39,649 bases of DNA from a virus. The position numbers and the translations under genes are program-made. Within the stretch, counting starts at the first letter, position 1; each line of letters starts with the position of its first letter. The notes beneath the pieces were generated by a model. That model did not search any database. It was not told the DNA's origin and was given only the letters and a program-made list of their open reading frames with translations. Below, piece by piece: positions 266-18,118 of the stretch. The stretch lies in the IMG/VR virus record IMGVR_UViG_3300045988_106623; one strand, given 5' to 3'.

Positions 266-577
266 TCATGCGGCGCGGTCGAGGCGTTGTTTGATGGCGC
301 TGACGCCGATGAGCGCGCCGGCGAGGATGCCGAGCGCGTTGAGCGTGGTCACTATCGCGTCCACGTGAGTCCAACCCCATGCGGGGCCGACCGTGCCCAC
401 GAACACGGCGAGTGCGGGCAGGACGATGAGGCCGAGCCATTTGAGGATGTCGTAGACGCGGCTGGGGATGAGCCAGTCGGGCACGTCATGGGTGACGTCG
501 GCCGTCTCGGGGCAGTCGCTCACATCGACGCCGGGAAGCGTTTCGCCGGTGTCGGTCGTGTTTTTGTTGTCGGTCAT
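266..577 (-). CDS. Holin (two predicted transmembrane helices, charged C-terminus)
   Basis: 103 aa. Hydrophobic stretches WLGLIVLPALAVFVGTVGPAWGW and LNALGILAGALIGVSAI. Lies next to the endolysin. RBS ggagc precedes the ATG at 577. Confidence 0.6.
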   Translation of the reverse strand: MTDNKNTTDTGETLPGVDVSDCPETADVTHDVPDWLIPSRVYDILKWLGLIVLPALAVFVGTVGPAWGWTHVDAIVTTLNALGILAGALIGVSAIKQRLDRAA

Positions 578-643: not shown

Positions 644-1753
644 TTAGCGGCAGGTCACCACGTCACCGGGATAGTAGACGTTGATGTTGCCGGAGGGTAC
701 CGTGCATTGGCTGACGTTGTAGCCGTGGGAGGTGGCGAACTCCCATACGGTGTCGCCCCATTGAAGAACCTTGGAGACTCCGTGGGACGGCGCGGTTGTG
801 GAGCCGCCGCCGTAGGTTACGACATCGCCCACGTAGTAGCGGTTGATGTCACCGCTCGGCGTATGCCATGCGGACAGGGGCCAAGCATCATAGGCTACGG
901 CGAGTCCCCAGATGGTCTCGCCCCACTGCATGACGTGGCTGATGCCACCCGTGTTGGTGTCGGCCGGGGGAGTGCTCGGCTGCACGGGCGCGGGCGTTGC
1001 CGGGGCCGGGGCTGTGGAGCCGGTGGGGTTGGCGTACAGATCCCACTGCCATGCCTCGCCACGGAAAATGTTGAGGTCGATGGGACTCCACGTGTTGACG
1101 ACACCGGTGCCGCTGTACTGTCGCATGGCCTCGCCGTACGCGCCGATCATCCACGGATTGGCCTGATAGCCGGTCGGGCTCATGTTCGCGTATTGGGCGA
1201 TCCACAAACCGTATCGGTCGCGGATGTCCTGCGGGATGGTGCCGGCGACCGGGCCGGTGTACAGCAATGGGCGCACGCCGCCCGAGAGCCGTTCGCACTC
1301 CGCCATGAATCGGCGTACCCAACCCCAATCGCCCCACGCCGGATTATCGTCCATCTCCCAGTCGAGCGCCACGATGCCGTGACGCCAATAGTTGCTGGTG
1401 TTGCGATAGAAGAATTGGGCTTCCGCCTCCGGGTTGCCGCCCATCGCGTAATGGTAGAGGCCGAACTTTTTGCCGCTGGCCTGTGCCTGGGCGATCATGC
1501 GGTTGGCGTCCGTGTTGACGCCGGACACGAGGCAGTTGTTGTTGACTTGGCCCGTGCCCCATGTGGTGCCGACCACGATGAAATCGGCCTGCATGTTGTA
1601 CACGTCCGCGCCGCACTGCCAGTTGCTCATGTCCACGCCCTGCATGTCCGCGTGCGCGGTCGCCGGGAGCAGCATCATGCACACGGCGGCTGCCAGCGCG
1701 GTACCCTTGGCGAGCAGACGCTTCCACAACGGCTTGTCCTTGTTATTGACCAA
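644..1753 (-). CDS. Endolysin: signal peptide + GH25 muramidase + two C-terminal LysM-like repeats
   Basis: GVDMSNWQ... and ...LYHYA... are GH25-like motifs. There are two repeats of the V(M/L)QWG(E/D)T(I/V)W type, and the N-terminus is KRLLAKGTALAAAVCMMLLPATAHA. TTG start at 1753 was chosen because the homologous leader at 4835..4892 has ATG at that position. GTG at 1795 is the alternative. Confidence 0.8.
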   Translation of the reverse strand: MVNNKDKPLWKRLLAKGTALAAAVCMMLLPATAHADMQGVDMSNWQCGADVYNMQADFIVVGTTWGTGQVNNNCLVSGVNTDANRMIAQAQASGKKFGLYHYAMGGNPEAEAQFFYRNTSNYWRHGIVALDWEMDDNPAWGDWGWVRRFMAECERLSGGVRPLLYTGPVAGTIPQDIRDRYGLWIAQYANMSPTGYQANPWMIGAYGEAMRQYSGTGVVNTWSPIDLNIFRGEAWQWDLYANPTGSTAPAPATPAPVQPSTPPADTNTGGISHVMQWGETIWGLAVAYDAWPLSAWHTPSGDINRYYVGDVVTYGGGSTTAPSHGVSKVLQWGDTVWEFATSHGYNVSQCTVPSGNINVYYPGDVVTCR

Positions 1754-1810
1754 TGTTTTCCCCTTTCTCGGGATGGATTGTTGTTTGTGGCCCACGGTCG
1801 TGGGTCAGGA
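1751..1810 (-). repeat. Leader/translation-initiation block, copy b (homologous to 4835..4892)
   Basis: Shares the perfect 29-mer tgtttgtggcccacggtcgtgggtcagga, the RBS and the first codons (M)VNN with copy a. Confidence 0.7.
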
Positions 1811-1837
1811 TTATCGGGGCCCACTCGGGGCCGTCAA
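1810..1837 (-). promoter_or_regulatory. Sigma70-like promoter for the lysis genes (TTGACG-16-GATAAT on the minus strand)
   Basis: On the + strand, cgtcaa at 1832..1837 and attatc at 1810..1815 with a 16-nt spacer, directly after the terminator at 1840..1869. Confidence 0.45.
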
Positions 1838-1839
1838 TG

Positions 1840-1869
1840 GAAAAGCCCCACACGGAATGGTGTGGGGCT
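1840..1869 (-). terminator. Rho-independent terminator after the distal tail locus
   Basis: 10-bp stem agccccacac/gtgtggggct (1844..1853 / 1860..1869) with a 6-nt loop, followed on the minus strand by UUUU (1840..1843). Confidence 0.65.
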
Positions 1870-1873
1870 AGAA

Positions 1874-2206
1874 TCAGTCGATCTTGTACAGGCGGGGAGT
1901 GAACGTCTTATCGACCTCGCCCGTGGTGTTGACGAAAATGTTGCATTGGAGAGTGCCGGCCTTCAAGGTTTTCGGCCCATAGTTACGAGGTCCGAACACA
2001 TTTGCTCCTTCGCTCCCGTCGTCGTGGGAGATATGGGCTTGTATGCCCATCAGCCATGAATTGTTGCCCAGCGGCCAGTCCGTGGCGTCCATCGTGTACG
2101 TGCCCGCGTCCACATGGACGGAACATGTCAGGCTATCCCACGAGTCAACCTTTTGTGTGGTGGAGCCTTTGAACCGGTACGTGCCCGGCGATGGTTCCGT
2201 GACCAT
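1874..2206 (-). CDS. CBM-like beta-sandwich module C. No visible RBS; probably expressed only as a -1 fusion to 2266..2796
   Basis: The 110-aa ORF's frame is open upstream to the TGA at 2285..2287, which abuts the G8 tract. The upstream linker in that frame contains LANLYP, resembling SRNLLAYGP in the neighbouring module. Confidence 0.5.
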   Translation of the reverse strand: MVTEPSPGTYRFKGSTTQKVDSWDSLTCSVHVDAGTYTMDATDWPLGNNSWLMGIQAHISHDDGSEGANVFGPRNYGPKTLKAGTLQCNIFVNTTGEVDKTFTPRLYKID

Positions 2207-2265
2207 AACACCCGGGTCGGTGCCTAATGTTTTAGGCAGTCCGGTGACACGCGGATACAGGTTCG

Positions 2266-2796
2266 CTAGCTCATAGCCCCCCCCTCAAGGCTTGTGACAT
2301 CGGGTTTCATCCACTCGTGCGCGGTGTTCCCGAGTTCGAGTTGGATTTTCAGGTTGCCCGACACGCTGCCGGCCGTGACGCCGCCACGCAAGATGCGCAG
2401 CTCGACGCGTGTGGTCCCCTTGGGGATGGTGACCACGGTGTTGTTTTTCCCCTGATAGACGCCGCCGAGGCTATTCGCGTTGGCGTAGAGGCTGATGACC
2501 AGGTTTCCGGGCACATCGCCCGTGTAGGAGATGATGAGAGGCACGCCAACGATGCCTTCGGGCACGTCGAACTCCCAGCGCACGCCCTTGTGCAATGGCA
2601 CCGATTCGGTGCCGCTGCTGAAATCAAGCGACCCGTCCTGCGCCACGGTGACGGTCAGACCGTTGCCCTCGGCGGGACCGTAGGCGAGCAGGTTACGCGA
2701 CAATACGGTAATCGGCACGGTTTTCGTAATCTTGCCGGCGGTCAGTTTCAGACTCGTGGACCCCGGTTTGATACCGGTTATTGATAGTGCGCCCAT
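2266..2796 (-). CDS. C-terminal half of a Big_2 Ig-like domain + CBM-like module B
   Basis: Starts MGALSITGIKPGSTSLKLTAGKITKTVPITV (the second half of Big_2). Strong RBS aaaggagg. The G8 tract lies in codons 171-174. Confidence 0.7.
   Translation of the reverse strand: MGALSITGIKPGSTSLKLTAGKITKTVPITVLSRNLLAYGPAEGNGLTVTVAQDGSLDFSSGTESVPLHKGVRWEFDVPEGIVGVPLIISYTGDVPGNLVISLYANANSLGGVYQGKNNTVVTIPKGTTRVELRILRGGVTAGSVSGNLKIQLELGNTAHEWMKPDVTSLEGGAMS
2277..2284 (-). repeat. G8 homopolymer (C8 on the + strand) in slippery register G_GGG_GGG
   Basis: The minus strand reads ctt gag ggg ggg gct atg agc tag. The 12-mer TAGCCCCCCCCT is shared with 3265..3276. Confidence 0.9.
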
Positions 2797-2839
2797 ATTG
2801 GGGCCTCCTTTTTATGGTGAAGGCCCCAATATCGGGGCC
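2795..2839 (-). promoter_or_regulatory. Two mutually exclusive hairpins around the RBS/AUG of 2266..2796
   Basis: ggcccc(2822..2827)/ggggcc(2834..2839) forms a local hairpin after the upstream stop. Alternatively ggccccaatat (2822..2832) pairs with atattggggcc (2795..2805), covering part of the SD and the AU of the AUG. Confidence 0.35.
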
Positions 2840-3298
2840 TTAGTTGAGTTTCCTGAGAATTGGGGTGATGGTTGCGTCCACGGTCTTGCCGGGCGAGACA
2901 CTGACGAGCATCTGGTAGTCGCCCGCCGGGAGCGTCGCCTTGACCTTGCCATGCGAGAACAGGTCGATCCTGCCGTCCGTGGATTTGAGCTCGCAGAACG
3001 GGCCGACACCGTCGGCGATCGTGTGTTCGAGCGTGTACTCGCCGGCCGGCAGGTCCTGGGTGACGAGGATGGTCGCCCAGTCGGTCGCTGTGCCCTTCGC
3101 GTGTACCATGCCGTCGCCGGCTGCGGTGAACGTGATTCCGTTGCGCGTGGCGGGCAGGGTGGGCAGCACCCATTTGTTTCCCCATACACTGACCGGGATG
3201 GTCTTTACGATGCTGCCTGCGGTGATGGTGATGGAGGTGTCGCCCTCCTTGAGGGCGCGGACACTAGCCCCCCCCTTAAACGCTGTTGTTGTTGGCAT
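2840..3298 (-). CDS. C-terminal half of a Big_2 Ig-like domain + CBM-like module A
   Basis: MPTTTAFKGGASVRALKEGDTSITITAGSIVKTIPVSV followed by a domain of about 110 aa. ATG at 3298 with RBS aagggg. The longer 240-aa track ORF is an upstream shadow extension. Confidence 0.65.
   Translation of the reverse strand: MPTTTAFKGGASVRALKEGDTSITITAGSIVKTIPVSVWGNKWVLPTLPATRNGITFTAAGDGMVHAKGTATDWATILVTQDLPAGEYTLEHTIADGVGPFCELKSTDGRIDLFSHGKVKATLPAGDYQMLVSVSPGKTVDATITPILRKLN
3268..3275 (-). repeat. G8 homopolymer (C8 on the + strand) in codons 8-11 of 2840..3298
   Basis: The minus strand reads ttt aag ggg ggg gct agt. G7 or G9 would truncate the protein. Confidence 0.9.
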
Positions 3299-3309
3299 GA
3301 TATTGCCCC

Positions 3310-3861
3310 TTACTGTTGTCTGACTGATGCGAGACTCACATCCTTGATGGATGCCGTATACTCCTGCGATGCCGCATCGGGCAGGATCGTCACCTTGAGG
3401 TTCTTGCTCTCGCCGACGCGCAGGGTGATGTTGTCGATGGGTTTGCCGGAATCGTCCGTGACCTTGATGGACTCGGGCGCGTAGGCCGCGCTGATGGACA
3501 CGGCGGCGGAAGTGAAACCGTTGACCGTGGCCGTCACCAATATGGTTCCGCCATGCCGCCACGTGAGCGTGTTGCCCGAAACCGTGGCGGTGGAAGTGTC
3601 CCTGCTCGCGAACGTCACGTCCTTGGTGGTGAGCAGGTCGCCAACATGACCGTCCGCATACGTGGCTTTCGCCCCCAGTTTCAGGGTGCCGGATACGGCC
3701 AGAGACTTGGGCAACGGCTTGCCCTTATCATCCGTGATATTGACGGAGACGACCGTGTCCTTGTCGAGGGGCCACACGAGCTTGCCATTGAACATGGCGT
3801 TGTACGTGTGGCCTCCCATCAACGGTTTGCCGACACGTTTGCCGGCGTATAGGGCTGGCAT
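3310..3861 (-). CDS. Tail-associated protein: N-terminal segment + one complete Big_2 domain + N-terminal half of a second Big_2 domain
   Basis: The complete domain ends ...TATVSGNTLTWRHGGTILVTATVNGFTSAAVSISA. The second stops at ...LKVTILPDAASQEYTASIKDVSLASVRQQ*, in the middle of the fold. Confidence 0.65.
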   Translation of the reverse strand: MPALYAGKRVGKPLMGGHTYNAMFNGKLVWPLDKDTVVSVNITDDKGKPLPKSLAVSGTLKLGAKATYADGHVGDLLTTKDVTFASRDTSTATVSGNTLTWRHGGTILVTATVNGFTSAAVSISAAYAPESIKVTDDSGKPIDNITLRVGESKNLKVTILPDAASQEYTASIKDVSLASVRQQ

Positions 3862-3863
3862 GG

Positions 3864-4730
3864 TCAGGCTCCCTTCACGGTGGCCTTCTTGGCCTTGGCT
3901 GGCGTGGAGTCCTTGCCGGGTTCCTCCGTGGTTTCCTCGGTGGTGCCGGTGTCGGTGGTGCCTTCGGTGGTGCCGGTGGAAGGCAGTACGGTGGTCGCAG
4001 CCTCCGCCTTGTCCTTGACCGCCTGCACCGTCGAATCGATGGCGGCGATGGCCGTCTCGCCCTTCGCCGCGACCATGGAAGCGGTGTCGGCCACGGTCTG
4101 CGAATCGTTGGCGACGCTAGCCGCCAACGTGTTGGCGTTCGACGCGAGGATATTAAGGTCGGACTGGGTGGCGGTCGCGGAATCAGCCAAGGACTGTGCG
4201 CTCAGCATGGCGCTCCTAGCCAACGCGGCGTTCGTCTGCGCTTCGGCCGTGATGGACTCCAACGTGCTCATGGCCATAGCGGCCTTCATGGTCGTGGCGG
4301 TCTCGTCGAAGAGCACCACCGCATCCGGGTATCGGGCGGAAAGCGTCTCAGCCTCCGACTGGGTGGAAGCGTGGCGAACCTTCAGCAATTGGGAGCCCTG
4401 CATGTCCTTCGGGACGAACGTGCCCGCGTCAACCTCCACGAGGTCGGCGTATTCGACCTTGGTCTTGGAGTCCGGCACTTCGACGTAGCGCGTGTACGCT
4501 TGCGGCGAATCAGCCAACTCCACAACCTGCCACACGAAAGCGGGCGTCGTAGGCAGCAGGTCAACCGTCAGCTCACCCGTCTCGGACAAGTCCGCGTCGA
4601 ACGAGGCCGCGATGATGAGGTTCTTGTCCGCGTCGAAATGGCGACGTACCGGACGGAATCGCATCAGGCCGGTGACCGGGTCCAGGCCGCCGGTCTTCGG
4701 CTTCCTGATGCTGATATGGATTTGGGTCAT
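3864..4730 (-). CDS. Putative tail fibre/structural protein (Ala-rich coiled-coil centre, Thr/Glu-rich C-terminus)
   Basis: 288 aa with strong RBS aaggagg. Call rests on position in the distal tail region. No catalytic motif recognised. Confidence 0.4.
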   Translation of the reverse strand: MTQIHISIRKPKTGGLDPVTGLMRFRPVRRHFDADKNLIIAASFDADLSETGELTVDLLPTTPAFVWQVVELADSPQAYTRYVEVPDSKTKVEYADLVEVDAGTFVPKDMQGSQLLKVRHASTQSEAETLSARYPDAVVLFDETATTMKAAMAMSTLESITAEAQTNAALARSAMLSAQSLADSATATQSDLNILASNANTLAASVANDSQTVADTASMVAAKGETAIAAIDSTVQAVKDKAEAATTVLPSTGTTEGTTDTGTTEETTEEPGKDSTPAKAKKATVKGA

Positions 4731-4735
4731 GATTA

Positions 4736-4837
4736 TTACTCCTCCTTAATGGATTCGGTTATGGTTTCGGGGGCTACGTCCGGGCGAAGCTCGTCCGGCA
4801 GCGAGGGCTTGGGATGACGTTTCAAATTGTTGACCAT
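4736..4837 (-). CDS. Small ORF (33 aa) starting MVNN, behind leader copy a
   Basis: ATG at 4837 with RBS aaaaggg. The first four codons and the leader are homologous to the endolysin start. Below the ORF-track cutoff. Confidence 0.35.
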   Translation of the reverse strand: MVNNLKRHPKPSLPDELRPDVAPETITESIKEE

Positions 4838-4892
4838 GTTTCCCTTTTCTCTGGGATGGATATTGTTTGTGGCCCACGGTCGTGGGTCAGGA
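4835..4892 (-). repeat. Leader/translation-initiation block, copy a (homologous to 1751..1810)
   Basis: Same 29-mer plus flanking similarity. Contains the small hairpin cccac-ggtc-gtggg and overlaps the stop of 4887..5192. Confidence 0.7.
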
Positions 4893-5192
4893 CTGTCGTG
4901 GCGCTATCGGCGCGGATTGGATGTCATTGTTGAGCGATGTCCCGTGGCCGTTGCCGCCCAGGCTGTGATAGCTGTCGTAGAGGCGTTGGGAGCGTGATTT
5001 GAGGTCCTCGTCCGCCACTCCGTCGTGCTCGATGACCATTTCGCGGCGCAGGTCCTCCAACTGGCACAGCAGGAGCTCGCGCAGCCCGTTGACCATGGCT
5101 TTGCCCCATCGCCACATCAGGCCCAAAACCGTGGCCACTCCGCCACAGATAAAAGGCACGAGCCAATCGACGACGTGAGCGAGCAAAGACAT
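4887..5192 (-). CDS. Membrane protein (single N-terminal TM helix); function unknown, possibly lysis-related
   Basis: 101 aa. N-terminus WLVPFICGGVATVLGLMW. RBS aaaggag. Confidence 0.4.
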   Translation of the reverse strand: MSLLAHVVDWLVPFICGGVATVLGLMWRWGKAMVNGLRELLLCQLEDLRREMVIEHDGVADEDLKSRSQRLYDSYHSLGGNGHGTSLNNDIQSAPIAPRQS

Positions 5193-5214: not shown

Positions 5215-5265
5215 AAAACCCACACGTTCGTCCCCGTTGGATAGGCCAACGGGCGTGTGGGTTTT
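5215..5265. terminator. Nested, bidirectional-looking stem-loop filling the gap between 4887..5192 and the recombinase gene
   Basis: Outer 12-bp stem aaaacccacacg/cgtgtgggtttt and inner 8-bp stem cccgttgg/ccaacggg. A/T runs are part of the outer stem on both sides. Confidence 0.5.
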
Positions 5266-5277
5266 CGGAGGTTGAAA

Positions 5278-6147
5278 ATGCTGTTACAAGAGTTTTGGAA
5301 CGACCGGTTTTGGCCGCATTGCACGCGGAATCTGCGTGAGAGCACGCGCGTGGGCTACGAGTCCGCGTGGCGGCTGCATGTCATGCCATGCTTCGGCGGC
5401 ATGGGTATGGACGCGATAAGCGTGGAGCTAGTGGACAAATGGCTTGCGAATTTCGACACTGCGGGCGCGGCACGCAAGGCATGGGCCGTATTGCGCGCGA
5501 TACTCAGGCGGGCTATCCGCTGGAACCTGTTGGACGTGGACATCACCAGACGCGACATCCAACTGCCGGCCAAACCTCATTACGAGCCGCGAATATTGAC
5601 CCTCCGTCAGCAGCGTGCACTGTTGCGGGGCTTTTACGGTCATCCGCTTGAGGCGTGGCTTATCTGTGCCGTCTCATGCGGACTCCGCACCGAAGAGGGC
5701 TACGGGCTTGAATGGTCGGATATTGACCTGCGCTCAGGTGTCCTGCACGTGGAGCGTGGCCTGCAATGGGTCGCCGGGCATGAGGCCGTCGTGCCGCCGA
5801 AAACCGAACTGTCCCGCCGCACGCTCCCGTTGCCGCGCTTCGCGGTCAAACGATTGCGCGAGCTCAGGCCACGCGAGGGGGGCCGACTCATCGGCACCCT
5901 CACCCCGCCGCAAGCCGCACGCCAATACAAGGCCTACTGCAAGCGGCATGATCTGCCGCATGTGCCCGCACGCAACCTGCGCCACTCATGGGCGACGAAC
6001 ACTCTGGCCGCCGGGGCTGACATCGCCATCGTGAGCAAAATGCTCGGCCACAGCGACATCAAAACCACCGCAAAGTACTACCTCAAACCGGATATCTCAG
6101 CCCTGCGAGACGCGCAACGCCTCTGGGAACGAGCCTTAACGGCCTGA
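5278..6147 (+). CDS. Tyrosine site-specific recombinase (shufflon invertase, Rci/Rin-like role)
   Basis: Shows ...CGLRTEEG..., NLRHSWATN and LGHSDIKTTAKYY (the R..HxxR..Y catalytic pattern). ATG at 5278 with RBS ggagg. Opposite strand to the tail genes and directly next to the repeat sites. Confidence 0.85.
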   Translation: MLLQEFWNDRFWPHCTRNLRESTRVGYESAWRLHVMPCFGGMGMDAISVELVDKWLANFDTAGAARKAWAVLRAILRRAIRWNLLDVDITRRDIQLPAKPHYEPRILTLRQQRALLRGFYGHPLEAWLICAVSCGLRTEEGYGLEWSDIDLRSGVLHVERGLQWVAGHEAVVPPKTELSRRTLPLPRFAVKRLRELRPREGGRLIGTLTPPQAARQYKAYCKRHDLPHVPARNLRHSWATNTLAAGADIAIVSKMLGHSDIKTTAKYYLKPDISALRDAQRLWERALTA

Positions 6148-6149
6148 AC

Positions 6150-6164
6150 GGGATTCCCTAACCC
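6150..6164 (+). repeat. Recombination site A (gggattccctaaccc), inverted relative to B, C and D
   Basis: Perfect 15-bp inverted repeat of 7462..7476. Confidence 0.8.
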
Positions 6165-6469
6165 AGACCGAAGTGCTGACGCTGATTAACTCCACTTACG
6201 GTACCGTCAAAGGCTACCGTCGCGGCTCGCTCGTCACGTTGCGCATCGACTGGAAGTCGTCGGCGTCCGGCGCGTGGAACACCGGCAATTTCGGAACCCT
6301 GCCCGAAAGCTGGCGTCCTCCAATGGACTTGAACTTCTCCTACGGCGGACGCGACGGCGCGAACCAGAAGATCATCAACGTAAACGCGAACGGAACCATG
6401 ACCTACGCCAATCAGGGCGGCACGCAGGGCACGGACGCGTTCGGCATGACCGTCTCATACGCGCTATGA
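6155..6469 (+). other. Silent RBP C-terminal cassette A' (104 aa from the SLT codons)
   Basis: tcc cta acc in the site is in frame with the track ORF 6173..6469. Contains LPESWRP, resembling IPKGFRP in the expressed cassette. Confidence 0.65.
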
Positions 6470-6520
6470 CCCGTGGGGTCACTGCAAGACAGTGCAACCG
6501 CCTGAGCCAGTGTCCCGAAG

Positions 6521-6847
6521 CTATGCGGCGGGCATCGGGTCGGCGGTCCTCCATACGCCGGTGCATCCCGCGTACGCGCTGTTCGGATTGCCAAGCATCG
6601 TGACGGTGCCATTGGCCTCGCCGTAACAGATGAATGTCGTTTCACCACCGAAAACGGCCACGGGCGTATTGACGGTGACGGGTCGATACCCTTCGGGGAG
6701 CTTCTCCTGAGCCTTCGTGTAATTGTTCTGCCCGCTACTGTTGAATTTTACGTTGCCACCCATGAAACAGATATCACCGATGCGCGTAAGCAAAATGCTG
6801 TCGCTGCTGTAAGGTACTCGCCACGTCGTAAAACGCTGGGTTAGGGA
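6521..6847 (-). other. Silent RBP C-terminal cassette B' (108 aa from the SLT codons)
   Basis: The frame is open from the site codons (6847) through track ORF 6521..6793. Contains LPEGYRP. No RBS or ATG of its own. Confidence 0.65.
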
Positions 6848-6848
6848 A
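6838..6848 (-). repeat. Recombination site B (core gggttagggaa)
   Basis: Shares ctgggttagggaa with the reverse complement of site A. Confidence 0.7.
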
Positions 6849-6850
6849 AA

Positions 6851-7144
6851 CTATTGCCTGTTCCAGATTGCGATCCAGCTTCCGAATATCGCGACCCTCC
6901 CGCACCAGCGGTTGTCTTTGGTGTTCCACAGGCGGAAGCGTATCTGGTTTACGTCGCTGGTATCCCAACGTTGTGCGGTGTACTCGCCGGCCTGGCCGAA
7001 ACCAGTGCCGAACGGCCCAATCGTGTAGGCCGCGTAATCGGCTTTCTTCCCGTTTGGGGATTGGACGTTGATGTAGAATGTGCCGTCATCATTCGTGGTG
7101 ATGGTATGGCCTCCGCACAGAATATACGGCATTCGGGTTAGGGA
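6851..7144 (-). other. Silent RBP C-terminal cassette C' (97 aa from the SLT codons), unrelated in sequence to the others
   Basis: The site codons tcc cta acc (7144..7136) are in frame with track ORF 6851..7132. Confidence 0.6.
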
Positions 7145-7145
7145 A
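7135..7145 (-). repeat. Recombination site C (core gggttagggaa)
   Basis: Lies 2 nt after the stop of the expressed RBP gene and immediately 5' of cassette C'. Confidence 0.7.
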
Positions 7146-7147
7146 AG

Positions 7148-7963
7148 CTACGCGGTAATCCAACAGCCGGATATACCGACGAATCGGCTGGTATATCCGG
7201 TGCCGTTCAACACCATTTTCCCCTCCGGCGTGCCGTAAAGGTAGAAACTGGTCGCGCCGCTGTTGTCGGTGCCGCGCATGACCGCGCGGGAATCGCCGGA
7301 CGGTCTGAAACCCTTCGGGATTGTCTCGTTGACGGATGTGTTGCTGGTCTGATTGAAATTGCTTGTCAGCGTGATATACGCGCAGGCGGTGACGATACGG
7401 CCGACACGAACCAGAGTGATATGCCTGTCGGAATACGGCATCTTGACTTGGCCCGTGACAGGGGTTAGGGAATCCCACACGTCGCTCATCGGCTTCAACA
7501 CGTTGAACAATGCGACTGGTGTGCCGATGGTGATGCCGTCCAGCGGGATGCGGTACAAGGGCATGTCGTAGGTGGTGCCCCCGTCCAACGGGCTGGTGGT
7601 GTTCACGGCGGGGTCGGTGGGCGTGCCCGTGGTGGGCGTGCCCCTGACCACGACCAGTTTCGCGCTCTCAACCGACTGCGAGCCCTTCGCATAGCGGCAT
7701 ACGATGAGATCGTTGCGTTTCTGACCCTGCGACCCGTTGGTGACGATCAGGTCCTCGGGCGTGCCCTGGCTGACGTGACGGCCCTGCATGACCAGTTCGC
7801 CCGTGCCGATGGTCACCTTGTTCGCCGAAACGACCGTAAGCTCGAACTTGTCGTGCACGTCGAGCACATAATCATCCAAGCCGAGAATGCCGGCGTTCAA
7901 ACCAGCGGCCTGTTCCGCCGTGGCGTGAGCCTTGTTCGCGTGCCCGGTGACGAGTTCAACCAT
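7148..7963 (-). CDS. Receptor-binding/tail fibre protein: constant N-terminal part (7963..7472) joined at site D to the expressed cassette D'
   Basis: 271 aa. Site D encodes WDSLTP inside the ORF. Last gene of the tail block. Confidence 0.65.
   Translation of the reverse strand: MVELVTGHANKAHATAEQAAGLNAGILGLDDYVLDVHDKFELTVVSANKVTIGTGELVMQGRHVSQGTPEDLIVTNGSQGQKRNDLIVCRYAKGSQSVESAKLVVVRGTPTTGTPTDPAVNTTSPLDGGTTYDMPLYRIPLDGITIGTPVALFNVLKPMSDVWDSLTPVTGQVKMPYSDRHITLVRVGRIVTACAYITLTSNFNQTSNTSVNETIPKGFRPSGDSRAVMRGTDNSGATSFYLYGTPEGKMVLNGTGYTSRFVGISGCWITA
7462..7476 (-). repeat. Recombination site D (gggttagggaatccc) inside the RBP gene
   Basis: In frame (tcc at 7471..7469). Perfect inverted partner of site A. 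Confidence 0.8.
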
Positions 7964-16231: not shown

Positions 16232-16755
16232 GGCAATGCTCCCAGCTTGTACCGGTCGAGTTTCGCCAGCTCGTCGGCCATCAGGGTCACGTTGTAGGTG
16301 ACGCTGCTGCCGTTGACCGACTGGGATTGGACGATGCCGGCGGCTGCGCTGCTGGCCCGTTTCGCCGCGTTTATGAGCACCCCCTGTACATCCGGCACCT
16401 CGTCCGGCGCATAACCGGCGTGGATGCGGTAGCGTATCGTGGCCACGCCGGCCGGGAAAACGCCGGCGGTGCATTCCACCAAACCCGTGGCGGGGTCGTA
16501 GGCGTAGTGCAGCCGGTTGCCGGCGATATCGGTCAGCTCATCCACCGACGTGACATGGCGTGCGGGGAGGCGAATCACCTTGCCTCCCAGCGAATTGACC
16601 ACGCCCGACAGTTCGATGTTCGGCGTGATATGCCAGCCGCACGTGCGACGGATGGCCGCCTGCGCCGCCTTGACCCAGAATGTCCCGTCCGCGTCGAACA
16701 CTGTCGGATCCTGGATCATGTCGGGGATTGCCCCCGTGGAGGATACGACGCTCAT
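16228..16755 (-). CDS. Head-tail connector/adaptor protein (by position)
   Basis: 175 aa. Its ATG at 16755 overlaps the stop of the Ig-like ORF. Confidence 0.5.
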   Translation of the reverse strand: MSVVSSTGAIPDMIQDPTVFDADGTFWVKAAQAAIRRTCGWHITPNIELSGVVNSLGGKVIRLPARHVTSVDELTDIAGNRLHYAYDPATGLVECTAGVFPAGVATIRYRIHAGYAPDEVPDVQGVLINAAKRASSAAAGIVQSQSVNGSSVTYNVTLMADELAKLDRYKLGALP

Positions 16756-16919
16756 AGCCCCTCGCTTTCGATGGTTGCGATGCTCGGGTCTGCGATTCGG
16801 GCCGTGAACTCCTGTGACGCTTCGGCTGGGAGGACTGACACCTCGAGTCTCGCCGTCTCGCCGACCCTCATCGCGAGGGCGTCGGGTGTGACGGCGATAC
16901 TCTCGGCGTCAGGCGTCAC
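16752..16919 (-). CDS. N-terminal half of a Big_2 Ig-like domain in the -1 frame of the capsid gene 3' end (likely a capsid C-terminal extension)
   Basis: Reads VTPDAESIAVTPDALAMRVGETARLEVSVLPAEASQEFTARIADPSIATIESEGL*. About 55-60% identical to the truncated half-domain ending 3310..3861. Below the ORF-track cutoff. Confidence 0.6.
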   Translation of the reverse strand: MTPDAESIAVTPDALAMRVGETARLEVSVLPAEASQEFTARIADPSIATIESEGL

Positions 16920-18118
16920 TTCGAGGCTTTTCCCAGTGCGACCTTGACGAAAGCCTTCGGATACTTGACCTGCAGGGCGAGGCGTTCCTTAACTCGGAAC
17001 GTGATCTTGTCGTTGGTGAAGTCGTTCTCATGGCTGTTGGTGGATTCGACGGTAAGACCGCCCTTGCGGTAGATGGTGCCGCCAGCCTTGAACGCGCCGA
17101 CGAGCACGGTGCCCTTGGTCATCGCCTCGGTGACCACGGTGCGCAGTCCCCACAGCGGCGGGTTCTGCATGATGCCGCCGTTGCCGTACTGTCCGGCGAA
17201 GAAGCCACCGCCGAAATACTGGCCGTTCGCGTCCTTGGACAGGCGGATGGCCTGATAGTCCGCCGGATTGATGACCACGGCGTCGGCGGAGAAGCCGGTC
17301 GCGGTGGCGATATCCGTGGTGGCCGCGAAGATGCGGTCGGGGTCGGAATCGTTGGCCTGCGCCTTGGTCTGGATTTCGCGGTTCAGAATGCCATTGAGAT
17401 TCGGGTCGGTGCCATCGCCGGACAGGAGTTGAATCTCCTCCTGCAGCTTCAGGTTGTACTGGGCGTGCTGGTTGATCTCGGACACGACGAAAGGCAGGTC
17501 TTCCGCCATATCGTCTGTGATCTTCCACCATGCGGCGATCTCATGCAGGCTGTCGGACACCCAAGTCGGATCCGGCATGTGAATCTGAGGCTTCTGCCCG
17601 CCTTCGGCGACGGTGGTAGCGTTGCCTTCGAACGCGCCGTAGACCGGGTATTTGATGGTGGTGCCGCTCATGGTGCCGGACGCGAAAAGGTCGGCGATGA
17701 CGAGCGGACGCTCATACGGCCATACGCCGTTCTGGTCGGTCTGGGTGAGATACGGCGCGTAGGCTCCGGACGCTCCGCCTGTGGCCTGAGTGTCGGAAGC
17801 GGCCTTGAATTCCGGAGTGGAGAACAGGCCTCCCTTGGTGGCGAGCACGCTCAAGCCCTTCTCCTGCAGGGACTTGACGTAGAAGTCGCCGAGGGTCTTC
17901 GCCTCGACGCCCTTATGCTCGGTCTTGGACGCTCCGGCGAGCTTGTCGAGTCCTTCGCCGGCCTCCTTGAACAGGTCGATACGCTCCTGCAGCTTCTTCG
18001 CCTCGGCGTAATGATGCTTCAGCTCCTCCTGCTCCTTTTCGGTGATGTTATCCATTCCCTTGGCGAGAATGGACTGTGCCGCCTTCTTCTCGACGGCGAG
18101 ATTGTCCATGAGATTCAT
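16916..18118 (-). CDS. Major capsid protein (HK97 fold family)
   Basis: 400 aa from ATG 18118 (RBS gaaaggag). N-terminal delta-like coiled segment. Follows the prohead protease. Confidence 0.85.
   Translation of the reverse strand: MNLMDNLAVEKKAAQSILAKGMDNITEKEQEELKHHYAEAKKLQERIDLFKEAGEGLDKLAGASKTEHKGVEAKTLGDFYVKSLQEKGLSVLATKGGLFSTPEFKAASDTQATGGASGAYAPYLTQTDQNGVWPYERPLVIADLFASGTMSGTTIKYPVYGAFEGNATTVAEGGQKPQIHMPDPTWVSDSLHEIAAWWKITDDMAEDLPFVVSEINQHAQYNLKLQEEIQLLSGDGTDPNLNGILNREIQTKAQANDSDPDRIFAATTDIATATGFSADAVVINPADYQAIRLSKDANGQYFGGGFFAGQYGNGGIMQNPPLWGLRTVVTEAMTKGTVLVGAFKAGGTIYRKGGLTVESTNSHENDFTNDKITFRVKERLALQVKYPKAFVKVALGKASK
16928..16934 (-). promoter_or_regulatory. Candidate -1 slippery heptamer G_GGA_AAA, 4 codons before the capsid stop
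   Basis: The minus strand reads gca ctg gga aaa gcc tcg aag tga. The 10-mer actgggaaaa is identical to the G/GT site. Confidence 0.6.

What the first reader, a model, noticed from the sequence alone, without database searches (positions are those of the whole stretch)
2266..3861. Split Big_2 (Ig-like) domain: one protein ends in the N-terminal half and two separate CBM-like proteins begin with the C-terminal half
Seen in sequence:
- The 183-aa protein (3310..3861) carries one complete Big_2-like domain (...ASRDTSTATVSGNTLTWRHGGTILVTATVNGFTSAAVSISA). A second domain stops mid-fold at ...ITLRVGESKNLKVTILPDAASQEYTASIKDVSLASVRQQ*.
- The next two genes each have their own RBS and ATG. They begin exactly where the missing half would start: (MPTTTAFKG)GASVRALKEGDTSITITAGSIVKTIPVSV and (M)GALSITGIKPGSTSLKLTAGKITKTVPITV.
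- Each half-domain is followed by a different beta-rich module of about 110-140 aa, opening with WGNKWVLP.. or SRNLLAYGP...
- No frame connection exists across the 183/152 junction. A TAA closes the 183 frame, and I saw no slippery site upstream of it.

Inference: the half-domains could reassemble in trans, by strand or fragment complementation. Interchangeable carbohydrate-binding-like heads would then dock non-covalently on one anchor protein. The same N-terminal half also appears on a capsid extension (separate finding at 16752..16934). I do not know of a described phage system that works this way.
Basis: partly seen in the sequence, partly recalled or inferred. Interest (0 to 1): 0.85.

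Follow-up and report, generated by a model that had tools for sequence, protein, structure and literature searches.

The report
Split Ig domain with poly-G switches
A Bifidobacterium prophage splits one small Ig-like domain between an adaptor protein and several sugar-binding-like "head" proteins, and runs of eight G bases decide which heads are made, which looks like an undescribed plug-and-socket way for a phage to vary its surface.

Summary
The 183-aa protein ends in the N-terminal ~50 residues of a Big_2 domain. The 152-aa and 176-aa proteins start with the missing ~30 residues. Pfam scores the halves poorly alone and above threshold when joined.

The split is conserved, not decay or an assembly error. 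About 85 related prophage loci from six Bifidobacterium species end the adaptor at the same mid-domain point. Head homologues down to about 28% identity start at the C-half.

One distant relative has the domain unsplit. In B. ramosum a G8 tract sits exactly at the split.

- G8 tracts at 3268-3275 and 2277-2284 vary from G6 to G13 among relatives. The first switches the 152-aa head on or off.
- The second fuses the 176-aa head to the "110-aa ORF". Public proteins occur as 176-aa or 307-aa forms, so the 110-aa ORF is not an independent gene.
- The capsid gene has a GGGAAAA slippery site that leads into the same N-half.

Assembly of the halves in trans is the best-supported reading, but I could not test it.

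The parts
3864..4730 (-). 288-aa protein directly upstream of the adaptor. It has an N-terminal beta domain and an Ala-rich coiled coil. It is a likely fibre or shaft that the adaptor attaches to (inferred).
   Evidence: PHROG phrog_28754 at 6e-164 and a weak match to minor tail protein phrog_6614. It is syntenic with the adaptor in L001, L083 and L085.
3310..3861 (-). 183-aa adaptor. Residues 1-35 are a conserved N-terminal motif, residues ~37-125 are a complete Big_2 domain, and residues 126-183 are the N-half of a second Big_2.
3313..3486 (-). The 'socket': the N-terminal half of a Big_2 domain (profile positions 11-50 of 79). It ends ...SLASVRQQ followed by TAA.
   Evidence: The same end point is kept across the related loci. 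AlphaFold2 gives pLDDT 39-50 and no secondary structure here.
3296..3312 (-). Junction element TAAGGGGCAATATCATG. The adaptor's stop codon overlaps the ribosome-binding site of head A, which suggests translational coupling.
   Evidence: The same element occurs in a second junction type, read in another frame: CAACAGTAAGGAGTAACCATCATG.
2840..3298 (-). Head A (152 aa). It consists of the leader MPTTTAFK, a poly-G-encoded GG, the C-half of Big_2 (approximately 3182..3271), and a beta-rich module of family phrog_35108.
3268..3275 (-). Poly-G tract 1 (G8), in codons 8-11 of head A. It acts as an on/off frame switch.
   Evidence: Among 52 related loci the tract ranges from G6 to G11, with 22 in frame with the ATG and 30 out of frame. 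L002 has a 100% identical adaptor protein but carries G9 here.
2266..2796 (-). Head B (176 aa as assembled here). M1 is followed by the C-half of Big_2 (2704..2793) and then a beta-sandwich module (phrog_35081).
   Evidence: AlphaFold2 gives pLDDT 94.3, with a hairpin at E12-20/E23-31 followed by ten further strands. Foldseek against BFVD matches tail fibre, RBP and CenC-like proteins at E 1.6e-5 to 1e-3.
2277..2284 (-). Poly-G tract 2 (G8), in the linker ..SLEGG. One extra G, or a -1 slip, fuses head B to the distal module.
   Evidence: Homologues occur as 176-aa or 307-aa forms, and the 307-aa form matches the predicted fusion apart from a few point substitutions. The tract ranges from G6 to G13 among related loci, with 22 fused and 39 split.
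1874..2276 (-). Distal module C. It includes the '110-aa ORF' at 1874..2206 and is read in the -1 frame of head B. It is not an independent gene.
   Evidence: Synonymous versus non-synonymous codon differences in the linker are 74/120 in the fused frame, against 22/170 and 23/155 in the other two frames. The ATG is absent in 28 of 63 loci. It belongs to the same family as the module of head A (phrog_35108).
1844..1869 (-). Terminator-like hairpin with a T run, closing the 288/183/152/176(+110) gene block.
16928..16934 (-). Slippery heptamer G_GGA_AAA in the major capsid gene, 9 nt upstream of its stop codon.
   Evidence: It is conserved, together with the extension, in L094, L096, L103 and L122.
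16752..16927 (-). ORF in the -1 frame that would add a second 'socket' (Big_2 N-half, ending ..SIATIESEGL and a stop) to a fraction of capsid subunits.

Best explanation
The locus encodes a modular, phase-variable accessory adhesin or decoration system of a B. longum-type prophage. This is the family that also carries the Rin shufflon.

How it is built:
- The 183-aa adaptor ends in the first ~50 residues of a Big_2 Ig-like domain. I call this the socket.
- A -1 frameshift product of the major capsid protein probably ends in the same socket.
- The head proteins begin with the remaining ~30 residues, the last three strands of the domain. I call this the plug.
- After the plug, each head continues into carbohydrate-binding-like beta-sandwich modules.

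How it most likely works:
- Plug and socket most likely combine non-covalently by fragment complementation, so that exchangeable heads hang on one adaptor.
- Hypermutable G tracts at module junctions choose the output. Tract 1 turns head A on or off. Tract 2 decides whether head B carries a second distal module.

Shown here: the split and its conservation, the poly-G length polymorphism and its effects on reading frame, and the capsid slippery site with its ORF.

Inferred: physical complementation, where the adaptor attaches on the virion, sugar binding by the heads, and within-population switching.
For: The split itself:
- HMM boundaries fall at the gene ends, and the score is restored when the halves are joined.
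- Adaptors across the 80 IMG/VR loci, L001 and five loci from other species stop at the same mid-domain point, despite diverged terminal residues (VRQQ, INSKE, IKQ, TTA, VTKEA). They carry 1, 2 or 3 tandem N-halves.
- Heads at 28-52% identity start at the C-half.

Evidence that the two halves belong to one domain:
- P0311 in L082 is a natural unsplit version, and Pfam calls it Big_2 positions 5-70.
- P0311's two halves are close relatives of the L083 adaptor tail and of head P0308. In L083 these two are separated by an entire 353-aa GDSL-lipase gene.
- In B. ramosum the G8 tract lies exactly at the split. G9 would fuse the adaptor to a C-half plus module in cis, and a second head with its own ribosome-binding site follows.
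- The adaptor's stop codon overlaps the next gene's ribosome-binding site.
- P0274 has an adaptor-like N-terminus and three such modules in a single chain.

Structure prediction:
- AlphaFold2 leaves the N-half unstructured in the adaptor, at low confidence.
- In the head, the C-half forms a confident hairpin.

Poly-G tracts:
- G-tract replication slippage is already documented in Bifidobacterium breve pilus genes (PMC9187656).
Against: - There is no direct test of binding.
- The adaptor model is poor overall (mean pLDDT 54), so 'unstructured' is weak evidence.
- The head's N-terminal hairpin is predicted with pLDDT ~91-93 without any partner. It may pack on the head's own body rather than need a socket.
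- Socket and plug numbers do not match one to one. The window has one socket on the adaptor and two plugs. L001 has two sockets and one plug.
- L019 has an adaptor but no plug, after a deletion between the two G tracts.
- Poly-G length differences between assemblies can include sequencing error.
- No curated CBM family matches the heads, and the PDB fold matches are weak.
Confidence: 0.55

Rival explanations
1. The two halves never reassemble. The conserved Big_2 coding sequence, with its poly-G-encoded Gly-Gly turn, is simply a recombination and frameshift hotspot where cassettes are swapped. The N-half tail on the adaptor is then a tolerated stub. The heads act on their own, or attach elsewhere, for example by oligomerising through their N-terminal hairpins.
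For: - Modules are clearly shuffled at G-tract junctions. P0166 carries a different distal module after YELANL.
- L019 has a deletion between the two tracts.
- The sequence G8-CTATGAGCTAGCGAACCTGT is nearly identical in L083, although its head is only 28% identical at protein level.
- The head hairpin is predicted confidently without a partner.
- Socket and plug counts do not match.
Against: - A useless stub would not be expected to keep its exact end point across six species and across adaptors with 1 to 3 tandem copies.
- It would also not be expected on the capsid through a dedicated slippery site.
- Heads down to about 28% identity keep the C-half as their very first residues.
- The adaptor stop and the next ribosome-binding site overlap, which suggests co-production.
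Confidence: 0.22
2. N-halves and C-halves each associate with their own kind. In a trimeric fibre, the N-halves would interleave as one oligomerisation element, and the hairpins of three heads would form a neck. The Big_2 resemblance would then reflect ancestry, not the present fold.
For: - Phage fibres and receptor-binding proteins are usually trimers (general knowledge).
- Many adaptors carry two or three N-halves in tandem with no C-half between them.
Against: - The natural unsplit protein P0311 scores as an ordinary single Big_2.
- The N-half shows no predicted structure alone, though the model is weak.
- There is no positive evidence for self-association.
Confidence: 0.12
3. The adaptor and head A are joined covalently by recoding at the junction. 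Candidates are readthrough of TAA, a short ribosomal bypass from CAACAG-TAA to the downstream CAACAACAACAG, or frameshifting on the G tract.
For: - The 152 ORF is open in the -1 frame back to 3562.
- In 25 of 52 related loci (G10 or G7) head A lies in the adaptor's frame. In the window's junction type only the TAA then separates the two.
- CAACAG is repeated 27 nt downstream.
- In B. ramosum the G tract alone separates the two parts.
Against: - There is no slippery heptamer before the TAA.
- The second junction type has two in-frame stops before the tract.
- Head B and its homologues are preceded by a hairpin, a spacer and a strong ribosome-binding site.
- In L083 a whole gene lies between the halves.
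- No fused adaptor-head protein appeared among the 240 best hits listed.
Confidence: 0.07
4. The split is gene decay, an assembly error, or a Rin-mediated DNA rearrangement state.
For: - Frameshifted one-off variants do exist in public data, such as P0038 and P0111.
- IS30-family insertions hit the head A leader in several loci.
- A Rin shufflon lies 2.3 kb away.
Against: - The same architecture recurs in hundreds of independent assemblies, including complete genomes.
- rix sites (TTCCCTAACCC) occur only at 6154-7472 and none lies in 1800-4900.
- All cassettes lie on the same strand.
Confidence: 0.03

Closest known systems
Donor-strand complementation in chaperone-usher pili (for example Pap and Fim pilins)
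   Same: One polypeptide carries an incomplete Ig-like fold, and the N-terminus of another polypeptide supplies the missing part. This gives a very stable non-covalent link. The mechanism is inferred here, not shown.
   Different: - Here about 30 residues (about three strands, roughly 40% of the domain) are supplied, not a single strand.
- The system is phage-encoded in a Gram-positive host.
- There is no chaperone or usher.
- The supplied piece carries a whole binding module.
- This is an analogue, not a family member.
Ig-like (Big_2) domains appended to phage structural proteins, often by programmed -1 frameshifting (Fraser et al. 2006, J Mol Biol; cited from memory)
   Same: - A Big_2 sequence sits at the C-terminus of a capsid or tail protein and is reached through an X_XXY_YYZ site. 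In the window this is G_GGA_AAA in the capsid gene.
- In L082 the sites are CCCAAAA and CCCTTTA, after the tail tube protein.
   Different: In the window only the N-terminal half of the domain is appended. The rest is encoded on separate proteins.
Contingency loci: poly-G phase variation in Campylobacter phages (mentioned in PMC10877375), in T2/T4 (bioRxiv 10.1101/2025.10.21.683753), and in B. breve pilus genes (PMC9187656)
   Same: Homopolymeric G tracts inside coding sequence change length and shift the reading frame of surface or receptor-binding genes.
   Different: - Here the tracts sit at domain and module junctions, where they encode Gly-Gly linkers.
- Several tracts can occur per locus, up to four cassettes in B. 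platyrrhinorum.
- They control both on/off state and module composition.
- They are combined with a split docking domain.
Rin shufflon of bifidobacterial prophages (Mavrich et al. 2018, PMC6109161), and the Min, Gin and Cin systems
   Same: The phage family and the apparent purpose are the same: alternative C-terminal binding modules on one constant part. The window carries rin (5257..6147) and four rix sites.
   Different: The mechanism differs. Rin uses tyrosine-recombinase inversion at rix sites. The locus studied here has no rix sites, and all its cassettes are co-oriented.
Adaptor-plus-receptor-binding-protein baseplates of lactococcal phages (TP901-1 and Tuc2009 BppU/BppL/BppA; cited from memory)
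   Same: Separate receptor-binding head proteins attach non-covalently to an adaptor protein.
   Different: In those phages the attachment is through trimeric N-terminal segments inserted into the adaptor. It is not through a domain split between the two genes.

Membership tests
Pfam Big_2 (PF02368) | A match over the whole 79-position profile, above the gathering score, within one polypeptide | tested here: not met
   For the second domain of the 183-aa protein, only positions 11-50 match, at 17 bits against a cut-off of 22.8. The first domain of the same protein is a member. The joined halves pass at 33.6-33.8 bits.
Donor-strand / fragment complementation of an Ig-like fold | An incomplete Ig-like fold at the end of one chain, with the missing strands at the N-terminus of another chain | tested here: met
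   Met at sequence and HMM level only. The natural unsplit homologue is P0311.
Donor-strand / fragment complementation of an Ig-like fold | A physical complex in which the two chains form one domain | not testable with these tools
Chaperone-usher pilus system | A PapD-like chaperone and an usher encoded with the subunits | tested here: not met
   Pfam and PHROG scans of nine neighbouring proteins show only recombinase, lysin and holin families. The other neighbours have no assigned function or only a weak minor-tail match.
Simple-sequence contingency locus (phase variation) | A homopolymer of at least 7-8 nt inside, or at the junction of, coding sequence | tested here: met
   The G8 tracts at 3268-3275 and 2277-2284 are the only G or C runs longer than 6 in the 39.6-kb window.
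Simple-sequence contingency locus (phase variation) | Tract-length polymorphism among close relatives that switches the reading frame | tested here: met
   - Tract 1 ranges from G6 to G11, with 22 loci on and 30 off.
- Tract 2 ranges from G6 to G13, with 22 fused and 39 split.
- Protein classes of 176 aa and 307 aa both exist.
Simple-sequence contingency locus (phase variation) | Frequent, reversible switching within a clonal population | not testable with these tools
   This needs error-corrected deep sequencing, as in PMC9187656.
Rin shufflon | rix crossover sites (TTCCCTAACCC) flanking inverted cassettes | tested here: not met
   rix sites occur only at 6154, 6838, 7135 and 7462. The cassettes in 1874-3861 are all on the minus strand.
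Programmed -1 frameshift extension of a structural protein | An X_XXY_YYZ heptamer in frame just before the stop, with an open -1 frame encoding a domain | tested here: met
   Met for the capsid gene: G_GGA_AAA at 16928-16934 with a 55-codon ORF in the -1 frame. It is conserved in four relatives. It is not met at the 183/152 junction.
Carbohydrate-binding module (CBM) | Significant match to a curated CBM family or to a solved CBM structure | tested here: inconclusive
   - Pfam gives no CBM hit.
- PDB Foldseek gives E of 1.6e-3 or weaker and TM of 0.40 or lower.
- BFVD hits include a CenC-like CBM, tail fibres and receptor-binding proteins, at TMq 0.5-0.58.

The most novel reading that the evidence does not exclude
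A natural split-domain docking system in a virus. One Big_2 Ig-like domain is divided between a 'socket' and 'plugs'. The socket sits on a tail-associated adaptor and, through frameshifting, on the capsid. The plugs sit on an array of interchangeable binding heads, each gated by its own poly-G contingency tract. A clonal prophage would therefore release virions with combinatorially different surface modules. In some relatives the same G tract would toggle the socket between being filled in cis and being open for a trans plug.
Probability: 0.45. Interest if true: 0.9.

Novelty: new variant of a known kind. Interest (0 to 1): 0.8.

Why it matters
If the halves do dock, this would be a natural counterpart of engineered split-protein tags such as SpyTag/SpyCatcher or split GFP. 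Here a gut phage would use it to swap binding modules without changing the virion scaffold.

It would add a third diversification layer to a phage family already known for the Rin shufflon:
- inversion (the Rin shufflon),
- slipped-strand switching at G tracts,
- non-covalent module exchange.

It bears on how bifidobacterial phages track variable cell-surface or mucosal glycans.

It also corrects annotation. The short '110-aa' ORFs are phase-off fragments of a 307-aa gene. Adaptors that look truncated are in fact complete.

The socket-plug pair could also be tested directly as a small protein-ligation or display tool.

Tried and rejected
- **Rin-mediated rearrangement:** no rix sites lie in the locus.
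- **Assembly error or decay:** rejected by conservation across the related loci.
- **TAA readthrough or bypass from CAACAG to CAACAACAACAG:** attractive in G10 variants, but:
  - the second junction type has two stops,
  - head B has its own ribosome-binding site,
  - L083 has an intervening gene.
- **Recombination between the two G tracts as a regular switch:** seen only once, in L019.
- **blastn of 1800-4900 against INPHARED phages:** no match.
- **Genome scan with the diverse head alignment A2:** it had no stretch conserved enough to search with.
- **PDB fold search of the head:** only weak beta-sandwich hits.
- **Literature searches for split Ig-like or donor-strand docking in phages:** nothing relevant.
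- **Chance expectation for the tracts:**
  - Under simple base composition, about 3.7 runs of at least 8 G or C would be expected in the window. Two G8 runs are therefore not improbable on that model alone.
  - The argument rests instead on their position, conservation and length polymorphism.
  - They are also the only G or C runs longer than 6 in the window.
Full report
**Setting**

The window is a Bifidobacterium prophage with its structural genes on the minus strand. It carries the Rin shufflon described by Mavrich et al. 2018 (PMC6109161). The tyrosine recombinase is at 5257..6147, and exact rix sites (TTCCCTAACCC) are at 6154, 6838, 7135 and 7462.

Between the shufflon and the lysis genes lies a co-oriented block:
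- 288-aa gene, 3864..4730
- 183-aa gene, 3310..3861
- 152-aa gene, 2840..3298
- 176-aa gene, 2266..2796
- 110-aa ORF, 1874..2206
- a terminator-like hairpin at 1844-1869

The lysis genes that follow are a GH25 lysin at 644..1795 and a holin at 266..577.

**Checking the observation**

Pfam finds Big_2 in the 183-aa protein.
- Its last 58 residues alone match only profile positions 11-50 of 79, at 17 bits, below the 22.8-bit cut-off.
- Joined on paper to the first residues of the 152-aa protein, the match extends to positions 11-73 at 33.8 bits.
- Joined to the 176-aa protein, it extends to positions 11-79 at 33.6 bits.

Both downstream genes have their own ribosome-binding site and ATG. The 183 frame ends in TAA, with no slippery heptamer before it.

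A 55-codon ORF in the -1 frame of the capsid gene (16752..16919) encodes ..LAMRVGETARLEVSVLPAEASQEFTARIADPSIATIESEGL.
- Alone it gives Big_2 positions 3-53.
- Joined to the head B plug it gives positions 3-79 at 46.8 bits.
- It is preceded by the heptamer G_GGA_AAA at 16928-16934, 9 nt before the capsid stop.
- Four related capsid loci keep both the heptamer and the N-half. Other relatives carry a different extension in the -1 frame, or none.

**Is the split conserved?**

A protein search with the adaptor returned 296 relatives.
- They fall mainly into two length classes, 181-184 aa and 231-234 aa.
- The longer class has two tandem N-halves.
- Of 80 IMG/VR loci, 78 yielded an adaptor ORF. Apart from seven truncated one-offs, these and the B. 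longum genome CP062943.1 stop at the same mid-domain point.
- Their final residues differ..ASVRQQ..ATINSKE..ATIKQ..ATTA and ..ATVTKEA.

Loci from four further species show the same pattern: B. ramosum, B. platyrrhinorum (two loci), B. reuteri and B. imperatoris. The B. reuteri adaptor is 282 aa, about one N-half unit longer than the two-unit class.

The heads show the mirror pattern.
- The listed close homologues of the 176-aa protein (the best 120 of 1231) cover 97-100% of it and carry no N-terminal extension.
- Most full-length representatives at 28-52% identity, from a library clustered at 50% identity, still begin with the C-half. Some have a short leader first.

Decay and assembly error are therefore excluded.

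The only G or C runs longer than six bases in the window are two G8 tracts, at 3268-3275 and 2277-2284.

Tract 2 lies in the linker ..SLEGG at the end of the 176-aa gene.
- One extra G gives ..SLEGGGYELANLYPRVTGLPKTLGTDPGVMVTEPSPG.., which runs straight into the 110-aa ORF.
- Public homologues occur as 176-aa or 307-aa proteins. The 307-aa form matches this predicted fusion apart from a few point substitutions.
- In the 84 nt after the tract, codon differences among loci are 74 synonymous to 120 non-synonymous in the fused frame. In the other two frames they are 22/170 and 23/155.
- The ATG of the '110-aa ORF' is missing in 28 of 63 loci.
- The 110-aa ORF is therefore the distal module of head B, not a separate gene.

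Tract 1 lies in codons 8-11 of the 152-aa gene, immediately before the C-half.
- Among 52 related loci it ranges from G6 to G11. In 22 loci it is in frame with the ATG, and in 30 it is out of frame.
- L002 has a 100% identical adaptor protein but has G9 at tract 1 and G7 at tract 2.

In the other Bifidobacterium species, arrays of two to four plug cassettes follow the adaptor.
- Most cassettes have a short leader (MSESFRGG, MGEAFRGG, MSETFRGG, MPTTTEAFRGG, MSDIMQNRLGG) and a G8-G11 tract just before the C-half.
- The cassettes are in mixed on and off states.
- Many distant head representatives end a few residues after GG or GGG, which fits a tract at that boundary as well.

G-tract replication slippage is documented for B. 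breve pilus genes (PMC9187656). Poly-G tracts in Campylobacter phages, and contingency loci in T2/T4, are also described. I have not shown switching within a population, and some between-assembly differences could be sequencing error.

**Are the two halves one domain?**

Three natural comparators say yes.
- *An unsplit version.* P0311, in locus L082, has N-half, C-half and module in one chain..DIVSVKSVEGGYSLTAVKDGTATLTV... Pfam calls this Big_2 positions 5-70, and the G run in the DNA is interrupted (GAGGGCGGG). The gene sits downstream of the tail tube gene. It appears to be reached by two successive -1 slippery sites, CCCAAAA and CCCTTTA, as read.
- *A widely separated version.* In L083 the adaptor ends ..DIVSVKSVEGGI followed by a stop, and the head P0308 starts NMQLIGKAAGTATLTV... 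Both are close relatives of the two parts of P0311. A complete 353-aa gene encoding a GDSL lipase fused to a head-like module lies between them. The halves cannot be fused by recoding there.
- *A switchable version.* In B. ramosum the G8 tract lies exactly at the split. G9 would read ..ATIQAVGGGRCRLTALAAGTTTISIQTGTLTTEIPVTS.., which Pfam calls Big_2 positions 3-68 at 34.7 bits. A second head with its own ribosome-binding site and N-terminal plug follows.

Other relatives carry the same modules in a single chain, behind an adaptor-like N-terminus (P0274) or at the distal end of long fibre-like proteins (P0321, P0289).

**Expression signals**

The adaptor's stop codon overlaps the ribosome-binding site of the next gene. 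Two junction types share the nucleotides CAACAGTAAGG(G/A)G but read them in different frames. A third type has AAGGAGGCATAACAATG. This looks like translational coupling of two separate polypeptides, which is common for proteins that form complexes.

**Structure prediction**

The 176-aa head folds confidently (pLDDT 94.3, pTM 0.85).
- Residues 1-11 are coil.
- A hairpin follows at residues 12-20 and 23-31.
- A further ten strands follow the hairpin.

Fold matches place the head among binding modules, but not in a named family.
- BFVD matches are to tail fibres, receptor-binding proteins, minor tail proteins and a CenC-like carbohydrate-binding protein, at E 1.6e-5 to 1e-3 and TMq 0.5-0.58.
- PDB matches are weak.
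- Pfam finds no CBM.
- 'CBM-like' therefore remains a lead, not a finding.

The adaptor model is poor (mean pLDDT 54).
- The complete Big_2 domain is recognisable.
- Residues 126-183 have pLDDT 39-50 and no secondary structure.
- This agrees with an N-half that does not fold alone, but it is weak evidence.

**Mechanism I consider most likely (confidence about 0.55)**

The N-half acts as a socket and the C-half as a plug.
- Heads dock on the adaptor, and probably on frameshift-extended capsid subunits, by completing the Ig-like fold in trans.
- The G tracts set which heads are made and how many modules they carry.
- In B. ramosum-type phages the same tract may choose between a socket filled in cis and an open one.

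Rivals:
- The stub is non-functional and the junction is only a recombination hotspot (0.22).
- Each half associates with its own kind in a trimeric fibre (0.12).
- The parts are joined covalently by readthrough, bypass or frameshift (0.07).
- Decay, assembly error or Rin rearrangement (0.03).

Points against my reading:
- There is no binding test.
- The head hairpin is predicted confidently without a partner.
- Socket and plug numbers do not match one to one.
- One locus (L019) has lost both plugs.

**Comparison with known systems**

The closest mechanistic analogue is donor-strand complementation in chaperone-usher pili. This locus is not a member of that family: there is no chaperone or usher, about three strands rather than one are supplied, and it is phage-encoded.
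- It shares the use of Big_2 and -1 frameshifting with the Ig-like decorations reviewed by Fraser et al. 2006 (cited from memory).
- It shares the logic of alternative heads with the neighbouring Rin shufflon.
- It shares the poly-G mechanism with contingency loci.

My searches found no description of a split Ig-like domain used for docking in phages. The Rin paper does not mention poly-G, frameshifts or Ig domains.

I rate it a new variant of known kinds. There is a substantial chance (about 0.45) that it is a categorically new docking principle.

Noticed in passing
window 1757-1831 and 4839-4913: A 75-nt direct repeat at 80% identity brackets the whole 288/183/152/176/110 block. Each copy holds a hairpin, a ribosome-binding site and the first ~13 codons of the lysin (MGHKQ..). 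The upstream copy heads a 43-aa ORF at 4746..4877. This suggests the adhesin block was inserted as a unit just upstream of the lysin.
   Followed up: partly
L011, L022, L042, L050, L051, L055, L064 (junction after the adaptor stop): A ~1.4-kb insertion lies inside the ATGCCAAC(AAC)n leader of head A, at slightly different positions in different loci. In L022 it encodes an IS30-family transposase (HTH_38 plus rve). The varying positions suggest repeated independent insertions that knock out head A.
   Followed up: partly
window 16753-16766 versus 2266-2286; also L083 3530-3570: GAGGGGCTATGAGC at the end of the capsid extension (where it overlaps the start of the next gene) resembles GAGGGGGGGGCTATGAGCTAG at tract 2. 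The stretch G8-CTATGAGCTAGCGAACCTGT is nearly identical in L083, although that head is only 28% identical at protein level. It may be a recombination linker for module exchange.
   Followed up: no
L003, L004, L012, L013, L017, L021, L049: Seven IMG/VR contigs end 71-104 nt after the adaptor stop, just beyond tract 1. This would fit assembly breaks caused by heterogeneity or repeats at this junction.
   Followed up: no
window 2789-2841: The hairpin GGCCCCGATATTGGGGCC after head A is also complementary to the ribosome-binding site and start region of head B (GGCCCCAATATGGGCGC). Alternative pairing could mask the start of head B.
   Followed up: no
L087-L139, downstream of the capsid gene: Many related capsid genes are followed, in the -1 frame, by a different ~120-aa extension (..KQYRLADASKAKVDASTYIEDVLFVDG..TKAEYDALV..). 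In L130 this extension appears in the capsid frame itself. C-terminal capsid extensions therefore seem to be exchangeable in this phage family.
   Followed up: partly
L082 5150-6010: In a distant relative the tail tube protein appears to be extended by two successive -1 slippery sites (CCCAAAA, then CCCTTTA). The first leads into a 272-aa Big_2-rich ORF and the second into the unsplit Big_2 plus head protein P0311.
   Followed up: partly
L083 1897-2958: A 353-aa protein fuses a GDSL/SGNH lipase-esterase domain to a head-type beta-sandwich module. This hints that these modules target acylated surface polysaccharides.
   Followed up: no
window 5257-7476: A complete Rin shufflon lies here: the recombinase, one rix site at 6154-6164 on the plus strand, and three rix sites on the minus strand at 6838, 7135 and 7462. 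It matches the published description.
   Followed up: yes
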